From a virus (taxonomy: Duplodnaviria; Heunggongvirae; Uroviricota; Caudoviricetes), in IMG/VR virus record IMGVR_UViG_2541047828_000003, positions 1 to 26,402 of that record: DNA of 26,402 bases. One strand, given 5' to 3'. Of the stretch, positions 1 through 9,000 are shown in pieces (the stretch's first letter is position 1; every line of letters starts with the position of its first letter). Position numbers: made by a program.

Positions 1-3000
1 ATGATTAACCAACTAACTTTTACAAAACACTATGACACGTTTGATAATGTATCAAAGATTTATTCTGATAAATTCCCTCAAGGAAAAGATTTAGATCTAT
101 TACATATTGTGCTTTATTTTCGATTCCTTAGTTATCAGGAAAACAACCTTAATTGTTATGAAAGTCACGAAACATTAGCTAAGATTTTTAAGTCTTCAGC
201 GTCAACAATTAAACGTAAGATAAACGATCTTAAAGAGATGGGATTATTAGAAACATCCCCACATCCTGATCCGTATATTTCATCTTTGATTTACAATGCT
301 CTCCCTCTCACAGATGCACATATTACTCCCCCAGGAGAATCATCACTCTCTGATCTTTCTGAGGCAGAAGAAGCACAGGAACAACCTAAAGGCCATAAAC
401 AGCCTTCTTTTGATGTTCTTGATGATTGGGATGCGCCTTTACCCTGGGAGACGGAAGAAACACCTGTTTCATCAAATGAAAAAGTAGCTAATGATAATGA
501 GGCATATTTTTCTAAGCATTACCCAAATATATACGATGACTTTGATATTCCATTTTAAAAAGTAAGGAGGACTATTGATACAGTATTTAATAAAAAGCAA
601 AGTAGACAGAATTCAGTGTAATGACACAGGAAAACGCATCTACGAAACACTTGCTTACCTCTATAAAGGAAAGCCAACACCGCTAAAATATAGCGATGTG
701 TTACATCGAGCAGGGTGCTCTGAAGATGGTTTAAAATTCTGGCTGAAACAGCTATCAAACTTCGGTGTTATAGAGATTAAAGAATTATCTTTCTCTACAT
801 TCAATCTCAAAAGACTAAATAGAGAAATAGAATTCATCTATTCCACTCTCTAAAATCTCTCTATGTGATTAAAATATAAAAGGAAAACATTATTATGATA
901 GTAGCTATGTATTGGTTATTGTTCTTTCTCACGTTAGAAACATACTTCGGGGTGTTTTCCTTTAAAAGAAAAGGAAAAATAAATGGCAAAAAGAAAAAAC
1001 AACGTTGTTAAGAAGATCGGTGATTCAGCTTCTCTTCTAAGTAAACCTAAATCTATTCTAAGACGCAAAGACTTTAAAGAGCTAGTTACGCTCTCCAAGC
1101 AAAATAGCGCCCCTGGCGAATGGAATACAGAGATCATAGAACATTCTCCCTCTGTGCCTTGTGGAGATGAATATATCGCATTACAAGAAATCTTATCTTC
1201 AACACCTGGCGTGTTCTGGAAACCTAGAAAAAGAAAAGAGTATATCGTTGACAGCTCTGATTTACGCAAATACCAGATTTTAGGATTTGAAGATTATAAT
1301 CACTACGTTGGTTATCTCGCCACCAATGGCCTAAATAATTTAGTTCCTGAATTCCAAATTTTAGATAATGCAGATCACTATGGAGACTTTTAATATGAAC
1401 AAAAACACGTATGACACAATTTACTCACTAATTAATTATTATGAGGATGATTACCTCCTGCCTTTAAACCGCGCTGAACTTGAAGCATACAAAGAAAACA
1501 CGCCAGCGGCACTAAATGAGGCGTTTAAACACTGGGATTTAGCTGTGAATGCCTTTGAGCACCTCTCTAAGCGTGTAGAGATGCTCTGTAAGCGTGAAAA
1601 CGCATACCTGACAGCCGATCAGATATGGGAGCTATCAAACTGGATAGAAGATATTGAATCTGATGTTCGCTATGTGGGAGATGGCCTTATCGAACTCGCA
1701 CAACGCTTAGGCGCTACTATCACAGAAGAATAAAAAAAGCAACAAAAAAGTTGTAAAATATCTTGACATTTCATATATTGTATGTTAATATAATTATATA
1801 GGGGTGATTATTTTTCCTTTATTGGTTCGATATTAAAAATTCTTCTTGTCGTTAAAGGGGAGTAAAATCTCCGCTCCCCGCTTCTCCTCCTTAAGTAAAT
1901 ACTGTGTCATTATACCTCTTTTTTCCTTTGTTATGCATACATCTTGGAGTGTGCATAACATAGGGTAATTACAAAGGCGGCTTTAAATGCTGCCTTTTAT
2001 TTTGCCCGTTATGCAACTTAAAAGTTGTATTTCTTACTTTAAACAAGGTAACAAGGTTTATATAAATGTTGTTCTTAAATGATAAAGAGCAAATCATCAA
2101 GTATAAAGATGAAATGCTGAAAATTAATCCACAAATTACCGAAATGGTAGCTAAATACGCTGGGTGTTCTGTAGAGGAAGTAGAAAGATGTGTTGAAAAA
2201 TATTTTTCTCCTTCTTCTCCGTCTACACCTTCCCTTAATGAATTAATCAAATTAAAAGCTAAGGAGATTACTAAATGATTATTGATTTAGACACTCTGTT
2301 TCCAGTTCGAAAGACTTTCACAGATATTGTAAGTTATTGTACTGATCCGTTTGCCTCTGTAGAAAGCAAGGTTTTTGCTTCTCTTCCTGCTGATGTTGAG
2401 TGCGGAGACTTGATCACCAGCACTGGCGCTAAATATGAATCAGGAGATGATATCTATGTTGTTATGAGTGAATTTGTAACGGCTGGAGAAAACAAGCCTG
2501 TAGATGTTTTACGTAGCAATGCTGGCCTTGTATGCATCAAAGCTGATGCCCTGAATGCTGTAAGTGAAGCAGCAAAAGCAGCATTAATTAAAAAAGGCTT
2601 CCAGCTTGAAGGGTTCCACTCTGTTTTCACTTCTTAATAAAAGGAATAATAATAAATGATTCTAGGTAATGATTACGTTGATTTAGCTCCTCTGTTCCAG
2701 GCACACAGCACTAGAAACTATCTGCTTTCTACTCTCGACTTCACTGATCCGGTGGGCGTTAGTTCTCATAAAGTAGCTGTTTCCCAGCTTGTCGAAAGCA
2801 ACGAATCTCTCTTTAACAAAGAGACAAGCCGTTTTAGTTCTGAACACAATGTTACTAAGCGAGAACAAGGTAAAGAATGGCTTATTGAAATCCCGTATTT
2901 TCTTCGTGAAGATGTGATTCGTCCTTCTGATGTTCAAGGCAAGCGTAAGCCTGGCACTGATTTTCAGGAAACACTCACTGATATTTATGCTGACTATATC

Positions 3001-6000: not shown

Positions 6001-9000
6001 ATGGATTTGCTATTGTTACCAGTGGGCTGGCATCTTCTGGCAATGACGTTTATGAAAATTATATGGCACTGGCTTTTGACAGTGTAGACGATGTGAACGT
6101 GAGACGTTCGGCAGATGTCACAAGCTACCCCGTAGAAAATGGTGCTACTGTATCGGATCACGTTCAAATTAAGAATAATCGGTTTTCTCTTAAAGGGCGC
6201 ATCTCTGAAACACCGATTAAAAGCGATCCTGGCTTGTTAAAGAGTGCAGGGGTGAACGGGAACAGAAGATCATTAGCTATTGATTATCTGAATCAGATTA
6301 TGGACAGTAGACAGCCTTTTCTTCTTGTTACAGAAAATAAAACTTTTGAGAACGTTGTTTTAACAGGCATCGAATACACAGAAGAGGCAAGCGAATCTCT
6401 GGTATTTGATCTTAGCTTTGAACAAATCAGATTAGTTTCTTATGGCACTGTAAACACTGTAGCTCTCAAAACACAGCCATCTAAGAACATTGGGGCTAAT
6501 ATGAAAAAACGTGTTAACACTGAAAAATCAAGTGAAGGTGAAGACACTATTACTCCTGCCTTTAAACAGGAATAGCCGTAAACGCCTCTAAAACGCTCTG
6601 TAATGATGTAATTATAAAAGAGGCCACCAATCTATGTTGAAGCCTCTTTATTGCGTCTATGGCGTTGTTTTACGCCTTAAATTTGATTTTTTATTGATTG
6701 ATAAGCCTTTCTCTATTTCAGGGTAGCGTAGAAGCTCAATATAGTTTTTAAGCTCTACTGGAGAAGCTGCATTCTTGCTATATGTGCGGAATGTTTCTGT
6801 ATTGCCGCGTGTATGGCCCAGGAGAAGGGCGATCCTGTCTTCTGGAATTTGATTTCGATCAAGAAGCTGTGCTACTCCGTGTCTCAGAGAATGAAACACC
6901 TTCCTTTCTGTTCCCTTTTCCCCTAAAGCCTTTCGTTTAGCTCTTGTAAATCTCTGCGTGTGCCACGTGGAACGTTTACCATCGGCCCGGTCTGTAATGC
7001 TGGCGTGATAGAACAAAAAGCCATTGTGAGGCTTTTCACGAAGAGATAACACCAACGGAGTGATAAGGCTATGCACAGGAACAAGACGTGCCGCAGCTTT
7101 CGTCTTTCCCTGTGTGATTTCAAAACACAGCACACCTTCGATCTCTTTCACATCGTCTATTGTGAGACTTGCTATCTCATTGATCCGCATACCTGTATAA
7201 GCACCGATAAGACACAAAGCCATCATTTCTTTGTTTTCTGCTGAATCACCGGAAAATACTTGCAACACTTGCAATAGCTCTTTGTTAGAAAATGCCTCAT
7301 AGCTCTCTCTACTTTGTGCCACATCAAGCCTATGCCCTCGCCAGGGGGAGAGCGCCCTTTCTGGCGCATCGTGGTAACGTGATGAAGCTAACTCCCATAG
7401 CTGGGCCATTGGGCTGATATAATTTGCAATTGATTGTTGTGAAAGGGTTTTTTGCATGTGTTCAATCCAGCCTGTAACAGTGGTGCGGCTTACATCTTGC
7501 AATGCAATATCAGGCTTTTTACGGTAGGAGAGAAACATCTCTACCGCTTTTCTTGCCTTAGCTAAAGTGGCTGGCTTCTTCTTCGTGCTGTTAATTGTCA
7601 GGTAGATTTCAAGAATTTTAAGCAATGACGGACACGAAGACGCTGTATCTTGCATTCTGGTAGCTGTTTTGGCGTATTTAGCCTTACTGCGTAACAGTTC
7701 CAGCGTGTTCTCTATTGTGCTGTTTACAGGGGCGACACTCTCCCGTAGACAATGGTATTCATCTGCAATCTGATCACGCTTTCTACGTGCAACACGAAGA
7801 TTACTTGTGTGCAGACTTCTAACAAACGTCCTTTTTCCTTCAAAAAAGGGCTGCATATACACAGGCAACGTGATCCTCAAATAGTAGTTACCGTAAGAAT
7901 CACAGATTATGTATTGATTGGGCTTGTATCTCATAAACTCCCCGGCTAAAGTGTCGGAGCGTTTGTAATGTGAAAATTGATTGTGACGCATAGAAAATGA
8001 TGATTTTTCTATAAGATTCAATCAATTAGCAATGGTCGTAGGTGATGGCATTAACACGAGATTAATCGAGTGTTTTACTCCTATTATCGGCACCATTCAA
8101 ACATCTCCCCAAGTCTACTAAAGTCTTTCAAAACCCCTTATAATCCGCGTATTAAAGCCCCGTTCGTCTTTTGACGTCTACTAAAGTCCCTCAAAATCTA
8201 CGGCCAGATGGGGGTACTTATGGGGGTATTTGCTGTTCGGTTTAGTGGAGGTACCCCCAAGTGAAACTCAATGCCCGTCAAATAGACACAGCCAAGCCAA
8301 AAGAGAAGGCTTACAAGCTGGCCGATGGTGGCGGTTTGTATCTCTTGGTAAAACCTAATGGAGGTAAATACTGGCGACTTAAATATCGTGTAGCTGGTAA
8401 AGAGAAGCTATTGGCACTAGGTGTGTATCCTGAGGTTACTCTAGCCGATGCTCGGGCAAAACGTGAAGATGCGAAAAGAGGTATCGCTGGTGGTATCGAT
8501 CCGATGGAAGCGAAACGAGAGGAAAAGATTGCCCGGGAAACGCAGTTAAACAACACCTTCAAAGATATTGCCCTTGAGTGGCACAGCAGTAAATTAAAAA
8601 AATGGTCTGCTGGTTATGCTTCAGACATCCTCGAAGCCTTCAACAAAGATGTGCTCCCTTACATTGGCAAAAAACCAATCGCCGAAATCAAACCACTTGA
8701 ACTTCTGAATGTGCTGCGGCGCATCGAGGGGCGAGGTGCTACAGAAAAAGCCAAAAAAGTGAGGCAGCGGTGCGGGGAAGTTTTCCGCTATGCAATAGTC
8801 ACTGGTCGCGCAGAGTATAACCCTGCACCAGACCTTACTAGCGCGATGCAAGGCCATGAATCTAATCATTACCCTTTCCTTACAGCCAAAGAATTACCTG
8901 ATTTTTTCAAGGCATTGTCCAGTTACTCAGGAAGCGCATTGGTTGTTATGGCGGCTCGTCTACTGATTATCACCGGCTTGCGAACTGGCGAACTACGTGG

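What the first reader, a model, noticed from the sequence alone, without database searches (positions are those of the whole stretch)
1..6600. Low-GC element with unrecognised cargo organised in three insulated operons
About ten genes with good ribosome-binding sites show no family I can recognise. They include two paralogous wHTH-like proteins, a 120/342-aa pair ending in a very strong terminator (a hallmark of an abundant product), and a 613-aa coiled-coil plus hydrophobic-segment protein followed by a 236-aa protein. It could be a reduced phage satellite encoding a few structural proteins, or a defence or other accessory system on an integrative island. GC content well below the neighbouring island indicates separate foreign origin.
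Basis: inference. Interest (0 to 1): 0.6.

Follow-up and report, generated by a model that had tools for sequence, protein, structure and literature searches.

The report
Satellite of virulent phi92-like phages
The low-GC stretch is most of a 13-kb integrated element that carries its own capsid, tape-measure and tail-tube-initiator genes plus a copy of the genome-end site of large virulent phi92/rV5-like coliphages, so it is most likely an undescribed phage satellite that those phages package.

Summary
Window 1-8096 is the right 8.1 kb of a 13,079-bp island in tRNA-Thr (thrW) of E. coli. It is bounded by 20-bp direct repeats and sits in tandem with a second, P4-like island. The "unrecognised" genes resolve as a Rep-like wHTH initiator, a gpD-fold decoration protein (120 aa), a lambda-E-family capsid protein (342 aa), a tape-measure homologue (613 aa), a tail-tube initiator (236 aa) and a tyrosine integrase. 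The initiator is 60% identical to phi92 gp135. There is no portal, protease, terminase, sheath, tube or lysis gene. The tail genes match only Stephanstirmvirinae, which are virulent 145-150-kb myoviruses.

The decisive feature lies 2.7 kb left of the window. It is a roughly 75-nt copy of the inner boundary of these phages' direct terminal repeat. E. coli element variants carry either the phi92-type or the Phapecoctavirus-type site, and Klebsiella elements best match a Klebsiella phage.

All 11 genes are under purifying selection. The core gene order is kept from E. coli to Serratia. The element occurs in about 13% of complete E. coli genomes. It fits none of the described satellite families, and nine literature searches found no description.

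Verdict: probably a new satellite family exploiting virulent phages. All evidence is computational.

The parts
1..558 (+). 185-aa Rep-like initiator (N-terminal wHTH). Its probable binding sites are four 22-bp iterons that lie outside the window, at L001 18240-18324.
   Evidence: HTH_36 2e-5; phrog_270/428 'replication initiation protein' 4e-9. Iterons; iteron-like arrays also in the Klebsiella element.
575..853 (+).
   Evidence: No family hit. No similarity to the 185-aa protein. dN/dS 0.26.
983..1393 (+). 136-aa protein, one of the four family core genes (with p120, capsid protein and tape measure); function unknown.
   Evidence: Found in all 11 compared loci. 383 homologues, very common in Klebsiella, none named. 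No phage homologue. AlphaFold2 pLDDT 53, not usable.
1395..1733 (+). 112-aa protein of unknown function.
   Evidence: No family or phage hit. dN/dS 0.19.
1763..2005 (+). Strong sigma-70 promoter (TTGACA-17-TAATAT with TG), an untranslated structured RNA of about 200 nt, and an intrinsic terminator (1973-2003). They lie immediately upstream of the capsid operon and may be a regulatory leader or sRNA.
   Evidence: Fold z-score -4.4. Same promoter-then-terminator layout in the Klebsiella and Serratia elements.
2066..2278 (+). 70-aa helical protein at the position where the phage has its scaffold gene; candidate mini-scaffold or size factor (unproven).
   Evidence: Phage order is scaffold-decoration-capsid. 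Its C-terminal tail resembles the scaffold C-terminus, but BLAST E is 0.37 and hhalign probability 0.5%.
2275..2637 (+). 120-aa capsid decoration (cement) protein with a gpD-like fold.
2656..3684 (+). 342-aa major capsid protein of the lambda-E / HK97-fold family.
   Evidence: PF03864 1e-14 over the full length. 21% identical end to end to the capsid protein of the phi92-like phage PaulScherrer. PDB 21uy_N 2e-6. dN/dS 0.15.
3702..3735 (+). Intrinsic terminator after the capsid operon.
3771..3971 (+). 66-aa protein upstream of the tape measure. The phage has a 75-aa gene in the same position; possible chaperone.
   Evidence: Synteny. No sequence similarity. Conserved in 7 of 11 loci.
3990..5831 (+). 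613-aa tape-measure protein homologue.
   Evidence: phrog_16051 4e-50. phi92 gp134, PDB 21vq_V 8e-37. 27-39% identical to Stephanstirmvirinae tape measures. The first ~65 nt are ~90% identical at DNA level to the phage gene.
5865..6575 (+). 236-aa tail-tube initiator (Dit-like).
   Evidence: PF21821 4e-29. phi92 gp135, PDB 21vq_N 4e-79. 59-61% identity. Present in only some family members.
6657..7934 (-). Tyrosine integrase (DUF6538 + SAM-like + catalytic domain), at the end distal to the tRNA.
   Evidence: dN/dS 0.04. Only 24% identical to K-12 IntF.
8077..8096 (+). attR: a 20-bp direct repeat of the tRNA-Thr 3' end, which also serves as attL of the next island.

Best explanation
Element A is an integrative phage satellite. 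It spans L001 15017-28096, which is from 4,983 bp left of the window start to window position 8096, and is 13.1 kb long. Its helpers are virulent Stephanstirmvirinae myoviruses (phi92/Justusliebigvirus and phAPEC8/Phapecoctavirus relatives).

Shown here:
- It is a discrete island in thrW with its own integrase and its own Rep-like initiator plus iterons.
- It encodes a decoration protein, a major capsid protein, a tape-measure homologue and a tail-tube initiator, in the same relative order as in these phages.
- It lacks portal, protease, terminase, sheath, tube, baseplate and lysis genes.
- It carries a ~75-nt copy of the inner boundary of the helper's direct terminal repeat.

Inferred:
- After infection by a helper the element excises and replicates from its own origin.
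- The helper terminase recognises and cuts the mimicked terminal-repeat boundary and packages satellite DNA. Packaging is probably into small capsids built from the satellite's own capsid and decoration proteins on helper portal, scaffold and protease.
- The satellite tape measure and tube initiator take part in, or compete for, helper tail assembly. Virions therefore carry satellite DNA at the helper's expense.
For: 1. The boundaries are exact 20-bp repeats of the tRNA-Thr 3' end. The element is solitary in other strains and in tandem here.

2. The tape-measure and tube-initiator homologues match only Stephanstirmvirinae among 50,697 phage records. Gene order is collinear with the phage. The 5' ends of both genes share ~90% DNA identity with the phage genes.

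3. L001 17259-17304 is 43/46 identical to phi92 318-363. This straddles the annotated end of the phi92 terminal repeat (1-343). All 65 matching phage records are Stephanstirmvirinae.

4. The same bipartite site (GTGCTTAACG, then about 38 nt, then AAATATC) is conserved in four phages and six elements, and the spacer co-varies between phage and element.
- E. coli elements carry either the phi92-type or the Phapecoctavirus-type site.
- In Phapecoctavirus KKP 3954 the site again lies at the terminal-repeat boundary.
- Klebsiella elements best match a Klebsiella phage.

5. The 120-aa protein has a decoration-protein fold. The capsid protein is a full-length E-family member.

6. dN/dS is 0.04-0.26 for all 11 genes. 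The same reduced gene set is kept in E. coli, Klebsiella, Buttiauxella, Kluyvera, Citrobacter and Serratia, with capsid identity falling to 36%.

7. Element GC is 38.9%, close to the helpers' 38-39% and far from the host's 52-57%.

8. No defence-family hits were found.
Against: - There is no experimental evidence of induction, replication, packaging or transfer.
- The capsid protein is only 21% identical to the helper's. Whether it can use helper portal, scaffold and protease is therefore unknown.
- Only one terminal-repeat boundary is mimicked. No copy of the other boundary and no full repeat was found.
- The site was not detected in the Serratia, Kluyvera, Citrobacter or Scandinavium elements.
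- No small-terminase-like or AlpA-like gene was recognised.
- The functions of p136, p112, p92, p70 and p66 are unknown.
- The role of a satellite-encoded tape measure has no precedent. The tube initiator is absent from many family members.
Confidence: 0.75

Rival explanations
1. An anti-phage defence island that does not itself transfer. Its capsid, tape-measure and tube-initiator homologues act as decoy or poison subunits that derail helper head and tail assembly. The terminal-repeat-like site titrates or misdirects the phage terminase.
For: - The tail proteins are close enough to the phage's (60% for the initiator, with conserved termini in the tape measure) to co-assemble.
- Assembly-blocking defences are known: Tai (PMC11364771) and Tab (PMC10884400), both listed.
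- The element is widespread in E. coli.
Against: - No known defence family was hit.
- A pure defence island has no obvious need for its own Rep and iterons, for a complete capsid plus decoration pair under purifying selection, or for host- and genus-matched packaging sites.
- Interference is in any case a usual by-product of satellites, so this reading overlaps with the best explanation.
Confidence: 0.13
2. A decayed (cryptic) prophage remnant whose surviving structural genes have no current function.
For: It lies at thrW, the site of the cryptic prophage CP4-6 in K-12. It holds only a subset of virion genes and a 2.6-kb stretch without ORFs.
Against: - All 11 genes have dN/dS of 0.04-0.26.
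- The same reduced gene set and order recur across genera, with capsid identity falling to 36%.
- att repeats, integrase and iterons are intact.
- By established knowledge, the only phage relatives of the tail genes are strictly virulent 145-150-kb phages that do not integrate.
- The integrase is only distantly related to K-12 IntF (24% identical over 136 aa), and no CP4-6 gene is annotated in the element.
Confidence: 0.05
3. A satellite of some other, possibly temperate and unsampled, helper. Under this reading the Stephanstirmvirinae similarities reflect occasional gene and site capture rather than the helper relationship.
For: The capsid protein is closer to Pseudomonas Pakpunavirus-like capsid proteins (24-26%) than to phi92's (21%). 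Several genera lack a detectable site.
Against: - The packaging-site mimic, the tape measure, the tube initiator, the DNA-level patches and the GC content all point to the same phage subfamily.
- Site variants track phage genus and host.
Confidence: 0.07

Closest known systems
PLE of Vibrio cholerae (helper: virulent myovirus ICP1)
   Same: An integrated island that appears to exploit a large virulent myovirus. It has its own initiator plus iterons and is expected to redirect capsid assembly and interfere with the helper.
   Different: No homologous genes were recognised. By established knowledge, PLE remodels the helper's own coat protein with the scaffold TcaP. This element instead encodes its own capsid and decoration proteins, plus tape-measure and tube-initiator homologues, and uses a tyrosine integrase.
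Capsid-forming PICI (cfPICI)
   Same: Encodes its own major capsid protein and depends on a helper for the rest of the virion.
   Different: It lacks portal, head-tail adaptor and connector, terminase, protease and AlpA, which are cfPICI core genes. It carries tail genes, which the SatelliteFinder models treat as 'forbidden' (PMC10085698). Known cfPICI helpers are temperate.
P4 (helper P2)
   Same: Packaging by mimicry of the helper's genome-end site (P4 cos equals P2 cos, by established knowledge). It is a ~12-13-kb element integrated in a tRNA gene.
   Different: There are no sid, psu, delta or alpha homologues. The site mimicked is a direct-terminal-repeat boundary, not cos. It has its own capsid and tail genes, and the helper is virulent.
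PICMI (Vibrionaceae; PMC10803314)
   Same: Small satellites of virulent phages.
   Different: PICMIs encode no capsid-remodelling or structural genes and package as concatemers (abstract). This element encodes four or five structural proteins.
SaPI CpmB small internal scaffold
   Same: A ~70-aa helical protein (p70) is encoded next to the capsid genes. Its C-terminal tail resembles the helper scaffold's C-terminus.
   Different: The resemblance is not statistically supported, and there is no homology to CpmB.

Membership tests
cfPICI | Own capsid module including portal, head-tail adaptor/connector and terminase (PMC10085698) | tested here: not met
   All ORFs of the element were scanned. Only the capsid protein and a decoration protein were found. 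There is no portal, connector, protease or terminase.
cfPICI / PICI | Absence of tail genes ('forbidden' components in SatelliteFinder) | tested here: not met
   Tape-measure (phrog_16051 4e-50) and Dit-like tube-initiator (PF21821 4e-29) genes are present.
PICI | int + alpA + primase/rep + terS or capsid-redirection gene | tested here: not met
   An integrase and a Rep-like wHTH protein are present. No AlpA, primase or TerS hit was found in Pfam, PHROGs or NCBIfam.
P4-like | psu, delta, sid, epsilon, alpha primase, alpA, P4-type integrase | tested here: not met
   No P4 core gene other than an integrase was recognised in element A. The neighbouring element B does have the P4-like set.
PLE | Vibrio-specific gene set (large serine recombinase, RepA_N, TcaP and others) and helper ICP1 | tested here: not met
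   The integrase is a tyrosine recombinase. No PLE protein family was hit, and the hosts are Enterobacterales.
Phage satellite (generic) | Discrete mobile element with its own integration and replication functions | tested here: met
   att repeats, integrase, Rep-like protein and iterons are present. The element is solitary or in tandem depending on the strain.
Phage satellite (generic) | Cannot build a virion alone, because it lacks essential morphogenesis genes | tested here: met
   No portal, terminase, protease, sheath, tube, baseplate or lysis genes.
Phage satellite (generic) | Carries the helper's packaging signal | tested here: met
   A terminal-repeat-boundary copy is present, with helper-genus- and host-matched variants. 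That this sequence is the functional terminase site is an inference.
Phage satellite (generic) | Helper-dependent induction, packaging and transfer | not testable with these tools
   Needs infection and transduction experiments.
Stephanstirmvirinae prophage remnant | Nucleotide-level or high protein identity across the structural module | tested here: not met
   Only the tube initiator (~70% DNA identity) and the first ~65 nt of the tape-measure gene match at DNA level. The capsid protein is 21% identical, and the decoration protein has no sequence similarity.

The most novel reading that the evidence does not exclude
This is a previously undescribed family of phage satellites, common in E. 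coli and widespread in Klebsiella and other Enterobacterales. It parasitises strictly virulent 150-kb rV5/phi92-like myoviruses. It mimics the boundary of their direct terminal repeat to capture the helper terminase. It builds its own, presumably small, capsid from a private capsid and decoration pair. Uniquely among known satellites, it supplies its own tape measure, and sometimes a tube initiator, to re-specify or sabotage helper tails.
Probability: 0.55. Interest if true: 0.85.

Novelty: new variant of a known kind. Interest (0 to 1): 0.8.

Why it matters
- **Possibly a first.** If confirmed, these would be the first satellites of virulent phages that I know of in E. coli and Klebsiella, and the first satellites known to carry tail tape-measure and tube-initiator genes.
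- **Detection blind spot.** Current satellite detection explicitly rejects candidates with tail genes (PMC10085698). A family present in about 13% of complete E. coli genomes (711 of 5,426) and abundant in Klebsiella is therefore missed.
- **Phage therapy.** To my knowledge, Phapecoctavirus and Justusliebigvirus phages are frequent candidates for therapy and biocontrol. A resident satellite could lower their yield and turn treatment into a route of gene transfer.
- **Mechanism.** The system offers a tractable way to study how terminases of terminal-repeat phages recognise genome ends. It also allows study of how capsid size and tail assembly can be re-programmed.

Tried and rejected
- **Antisense idea.** A 31-nt complementarity between the leader RNA (1891-1921) and the start region of the 92-aa gene (564-594) is not kept in a 94%-identical variant. 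I dropped it as chance.
- **TGATTAAAATAT motif** (three forward copies). It is absent from the phage structural region. The copy at 3761 is simply the ribosome-binding site, spacer and ATG of p66. It is not treated as a promoter.
- **p136 structure.** AlphaFold2 gave pLDDT 53, so no fold search was run. p136 and p112 have no phage homologues.
- **p70 as a truncated scaffold.** BLAST E 0.37 and hhalign probability 0.5%. Kept only as a lead.
- **Paralogy of the two wHTH proteins.** Not supported.
- **Relation to K-12 CP4-6.** The integrase is only 24% identical to IntF over 136 aa.
- **Rfam.** Only the tRNA was found.
- **PADLOC.** Only generic wHTH noise.
- **NCBIfam.** No usable hits.
- **Alignment of the leader region across genera.** Too divergent for covariation analysis.
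- **~12-kb metagenome contigs.** Not shown to be circular or packaged forms: L023 carries chromosomal flanks, L021 is uninformative, and circularity was not tested.
- **IMG/VR hits.** Mostly provirus calls from isolate genomes, so not evidence of encapsidation.
- **Left region of the Citrobacter element against phages.** No match.
- **Other terminal-repeat boundary.** No copy found in the element.
- **Literature.** Nine full-text searches found no description of this element.

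
Full report
**Location and boundaries**

The window matches E. coli strain 20KM2222 at 100% identity. It lies between proA/tRNA-Thr (thrW) and paoD, the site occupied by the cryptic prophage CP4-6 in K-12.

The last 20 nt of tRNA-Thr, ACTCCTATTATCGGCACCAT, recur exactly at window 8077-8096. They recur in degenerate form near window 25850. This defines two tandem islands.
- Element A spans L001 15017-28096, which is from 4,983 bp left of the window start to window position 8096. The repeat spacing is 13,079 bp.
- Element B spans window 8097 to about 25870.

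In other strains element A sits alone between thrW and paoD, with lengths of 12,199 and 12,847 bp. GC content is 38.9% for element A, 47.6% for element B and 52-57% for the flanks.

**Gene content**

Profile searches identify half of the "unrecognised" genes.
- ORF 1-558 is a wHTH protein resembling the N-terminus of phage replication initiators.
- ORF 2656-3684 is a full-length Phage_cap_E major capsid protein.
- ORF 3990-5831 matches a tape-measure PHROG at 4e-50.
- ORF 5865-6575 is a Dit-like tail protein at 4e-29.
- ORF 6657-7934(-) is a tyrosine integrase.

The 5 kb left of the window hold only small ORFs and one variable cargo gene. They also contain a 2.6-kb ORF-free stretch with four 22-bp iterons at L001 18240-18324. 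There is no portal, protease, terminase, sheath, tube, baseplate or lysis gene anywhere in the element. It cannot make a virion on its own.

**Relatives of the structural genes**

Among 50,697 phage records, the tape-measure and tube-initiator homologues match only Stephanstirmvirinae. This group includes phi92, Justusliebigvirus and Phapecoctavirus, which are 145-150-kb myoviruses. By established knowledge they are strictly virulent.
- The tape measure is 27-39% identical to the phage proteins.
- The tube initiator is 59-61% identical.
- Both have solved counterparts in the phi92 tail structure: 21vq chains V (8e-37) and N (4e-79).
- The capsid protein aligns end to end with the capsid protein of the phi92-like phage PaulScherrer at 21% identity. 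Its nearest phage relatives are Pseudomonas Pakpunavirus-like capsid proteins.

Gene order is collinear with the phage.
- In the phage the order is scaffold, decoration, capsid, eight further genes, a 75-aa gene, tape measure, then tube initiator.
- In the element the order is p70, p120, capsid, p66, tape measure, then tube initiator.

At DNA level the only phage similarity in window 1-6650 is to these phages, within 3991-6512. The first ~65 nt of the tape-measure gene and codons 11-34 of the initiator gene are about 90% identical to the phage genes. The remainder of each gene is far more diverged. This pattern suggests recombination with these phages, or strong constraint on interaction surfaces.

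**The decisive feature: a terminal-repeat boundary copy**

This feature lies outside the window. L001 17259-17304, 2.7 kb left of the window start, is 43/46 identical to phi92 positions 318-363. The phi92 record annotates its left direct terminal repeat as 1-343. The match therefore straddles the inner boundary of the repeat: 26 nt inside it are 100% identical, and 20 nt outside are also matched. All 65 phage records that match belong to this phage group.

An alignment with phi92, a Klebsiella phage and a Citrobacter phage shows two conserved blocks, GTGCTTAACG and AAATATC, about 38 nt apart.

A second E. coli element variant (L009) carries, at the same place and in the same orientation, an 83-85-nt match to Phapecoctavirus phages. 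In Phapecoctavirus KKP 3954 that sequence again straddles the boundary of the 309-bp terminal repeat.

I then compared four phage boundary regions with 37 element loci.
- Twenty E. coli-type loci carry a site, two of them only partially. It is either the phi92 type or the Phapecoctavirus type.
- The Klebsiella elements best match the Klebsiella phage.
- The variable spacer co-varies between phage and element.
- Site type is not linked to capsid variant, which indicates modular swapping.

The site region is present in 426 of 5,426 complete E. coli genomes and is never annotated. I read it as the recognition or cleavage site of the helper terminase. That reading is an inference.

**The genes are functional, not decaying**

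Between two E. coli variants, all 11 genes have dN/dS of 0.04-0.26.

The same reduced architecture recurs across genera, with capsid identity falling to 36%. The order is small ORFs, a variable Rep module, p136, p112, a non-coding leader, p70, p120, capsid, p66, tape measure, then a reversed integrase. It is seen in Klebsiella, Buttiauxella, Kluyvera, Citrobacter, Scandinavium and Serratia.

The four genes found in every compared locus are p136, p120, the capsid protein and the tape measure. The tube initiator is present only in the E. coli elements and a few others. Where present it can be up to 78% identical to the phage protein.

Element GC (38.9%) matches the putative helpers (38-39%) rather than the host. 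PADLOC finds no defence system.

**Most likely mechanism** (inferred unless a call is cited)

- A helper infects the cell, and the element excises and replicates from its own origin.
- The helper terminase cuts the mimicked boundary and packages the element.
- The private capsid and decoration pair probably builds capsids sized for about 13 kb, using helper portal, scaffold and protease.
- p70 occupies the scaffold position and ends like the scaffold protein, but this resemblance is statistically unsupported.
- The satellite tape measure is 613 aa, against 659 aa in the helper. Together with the tube initiator it enters or competes for helper tail assembly. Its precise benefit is unknown.

**Comparison with known families**

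In behaviour the element resembles several known satellites.
- PLE and PICMI, in having a virulent helper.
- cfPICI, in encoding its own capsid protein.
- P4, in mimicking the helper's genome-end site.

It fails the defining gene sets of all four SatelliteFinder families. It also carries tail genes, which that tool treats as forbidden. Nine literature searches found no description of it.

I rate it a new variant (family) of a known kind. Confidence that it is a satellite of these phages is 0.75, and all the evidence is computational.

Noticed in passing
window 8097-25870: The second tandem island has a P4-like backbone: integrase 8261-9475, AlpA, antirepressor, Ash, Icd-like, and a Zn-ribbon/TOPRIM/DUF927 primase at 14579-17338. 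It also carries P22-type ejection-protein genes: DUF2824 at 18101-18562, gp7 at 18556-19233, gp20/Inj_translocase at 19233-20654, and a 701-aa ORF at 20654-22759. This is another island carrying a subset of virion proteins.
   Followed up: partly
window 1763-2005: A strong sigma-70 promoter, a ~200-nt structured untranslated RNA (fold z-score -4.4) and an intrinsic terminator lie directly upstream of the capsid operon. The same layout occurs in the Klebsiella and Serratia elements. It could be an antitermination-controlled leader or an sRNA.
   Followed up: partly
window 895-1011: An unannotated 38-aa ORF (MIVAMYWLLFFLTLETYFGVFSFKRKGKINGKKKKQRC) is hydrophobic and then basic. It overlaps the start of the 136-aa gene, and its first 30 nt are conserved in variant L004.
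   Followed up: no
window 3990-4055 and 5895-5966: Short patches of ~90% DNA identity to phi92-like phages occur at the 5' ends of the tape-measure and tube-initiator genes. The rest of each gene is far more diverged. This suggests recombination with the phage or constraint on an interaction surface.
   Followed up: partly
L001 15017-19578 (left of the window); L004 6078-6617; L006 4394-5083: The left arm carries variable cargo. It is a 183-aa secreted-looking protein in this strain, a serine resolvase in other E. coli elements, and a Dam methylase in Klebsiella. Elements outside E. coli also have a ~185-205-aa Phage_integrase-domain gene at the left end.
   Followed up: no
L001 17128, window 866 and window 3761: The 12-mer TGATTAAAATAT occurs three times, always on the + strand, and is absent from the phage structural region. 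One copy is just the ribosome-binding site plus ATG of p66. Its significance is unclear.
   Followed up: partly
phage collection records MG065639, MG065645, MG065656, MG065689, MG065650: These 146-151-kb records are labelled 'Campylobacter phage' (A150, A145, C3, A110a, B15). In every search they behave like E. coli Stephanstirmvirinae, so the host label looks doubtful.
   Followed up: no
L001 19058-19079: A 22-nt match (95% identity, E 3e-4 in a small local search) to phi92 147334-147355, about 0.9 kb upstream of the right terminal repeat. It did not reach significance at database scale and may be chance.
   Followed up: no
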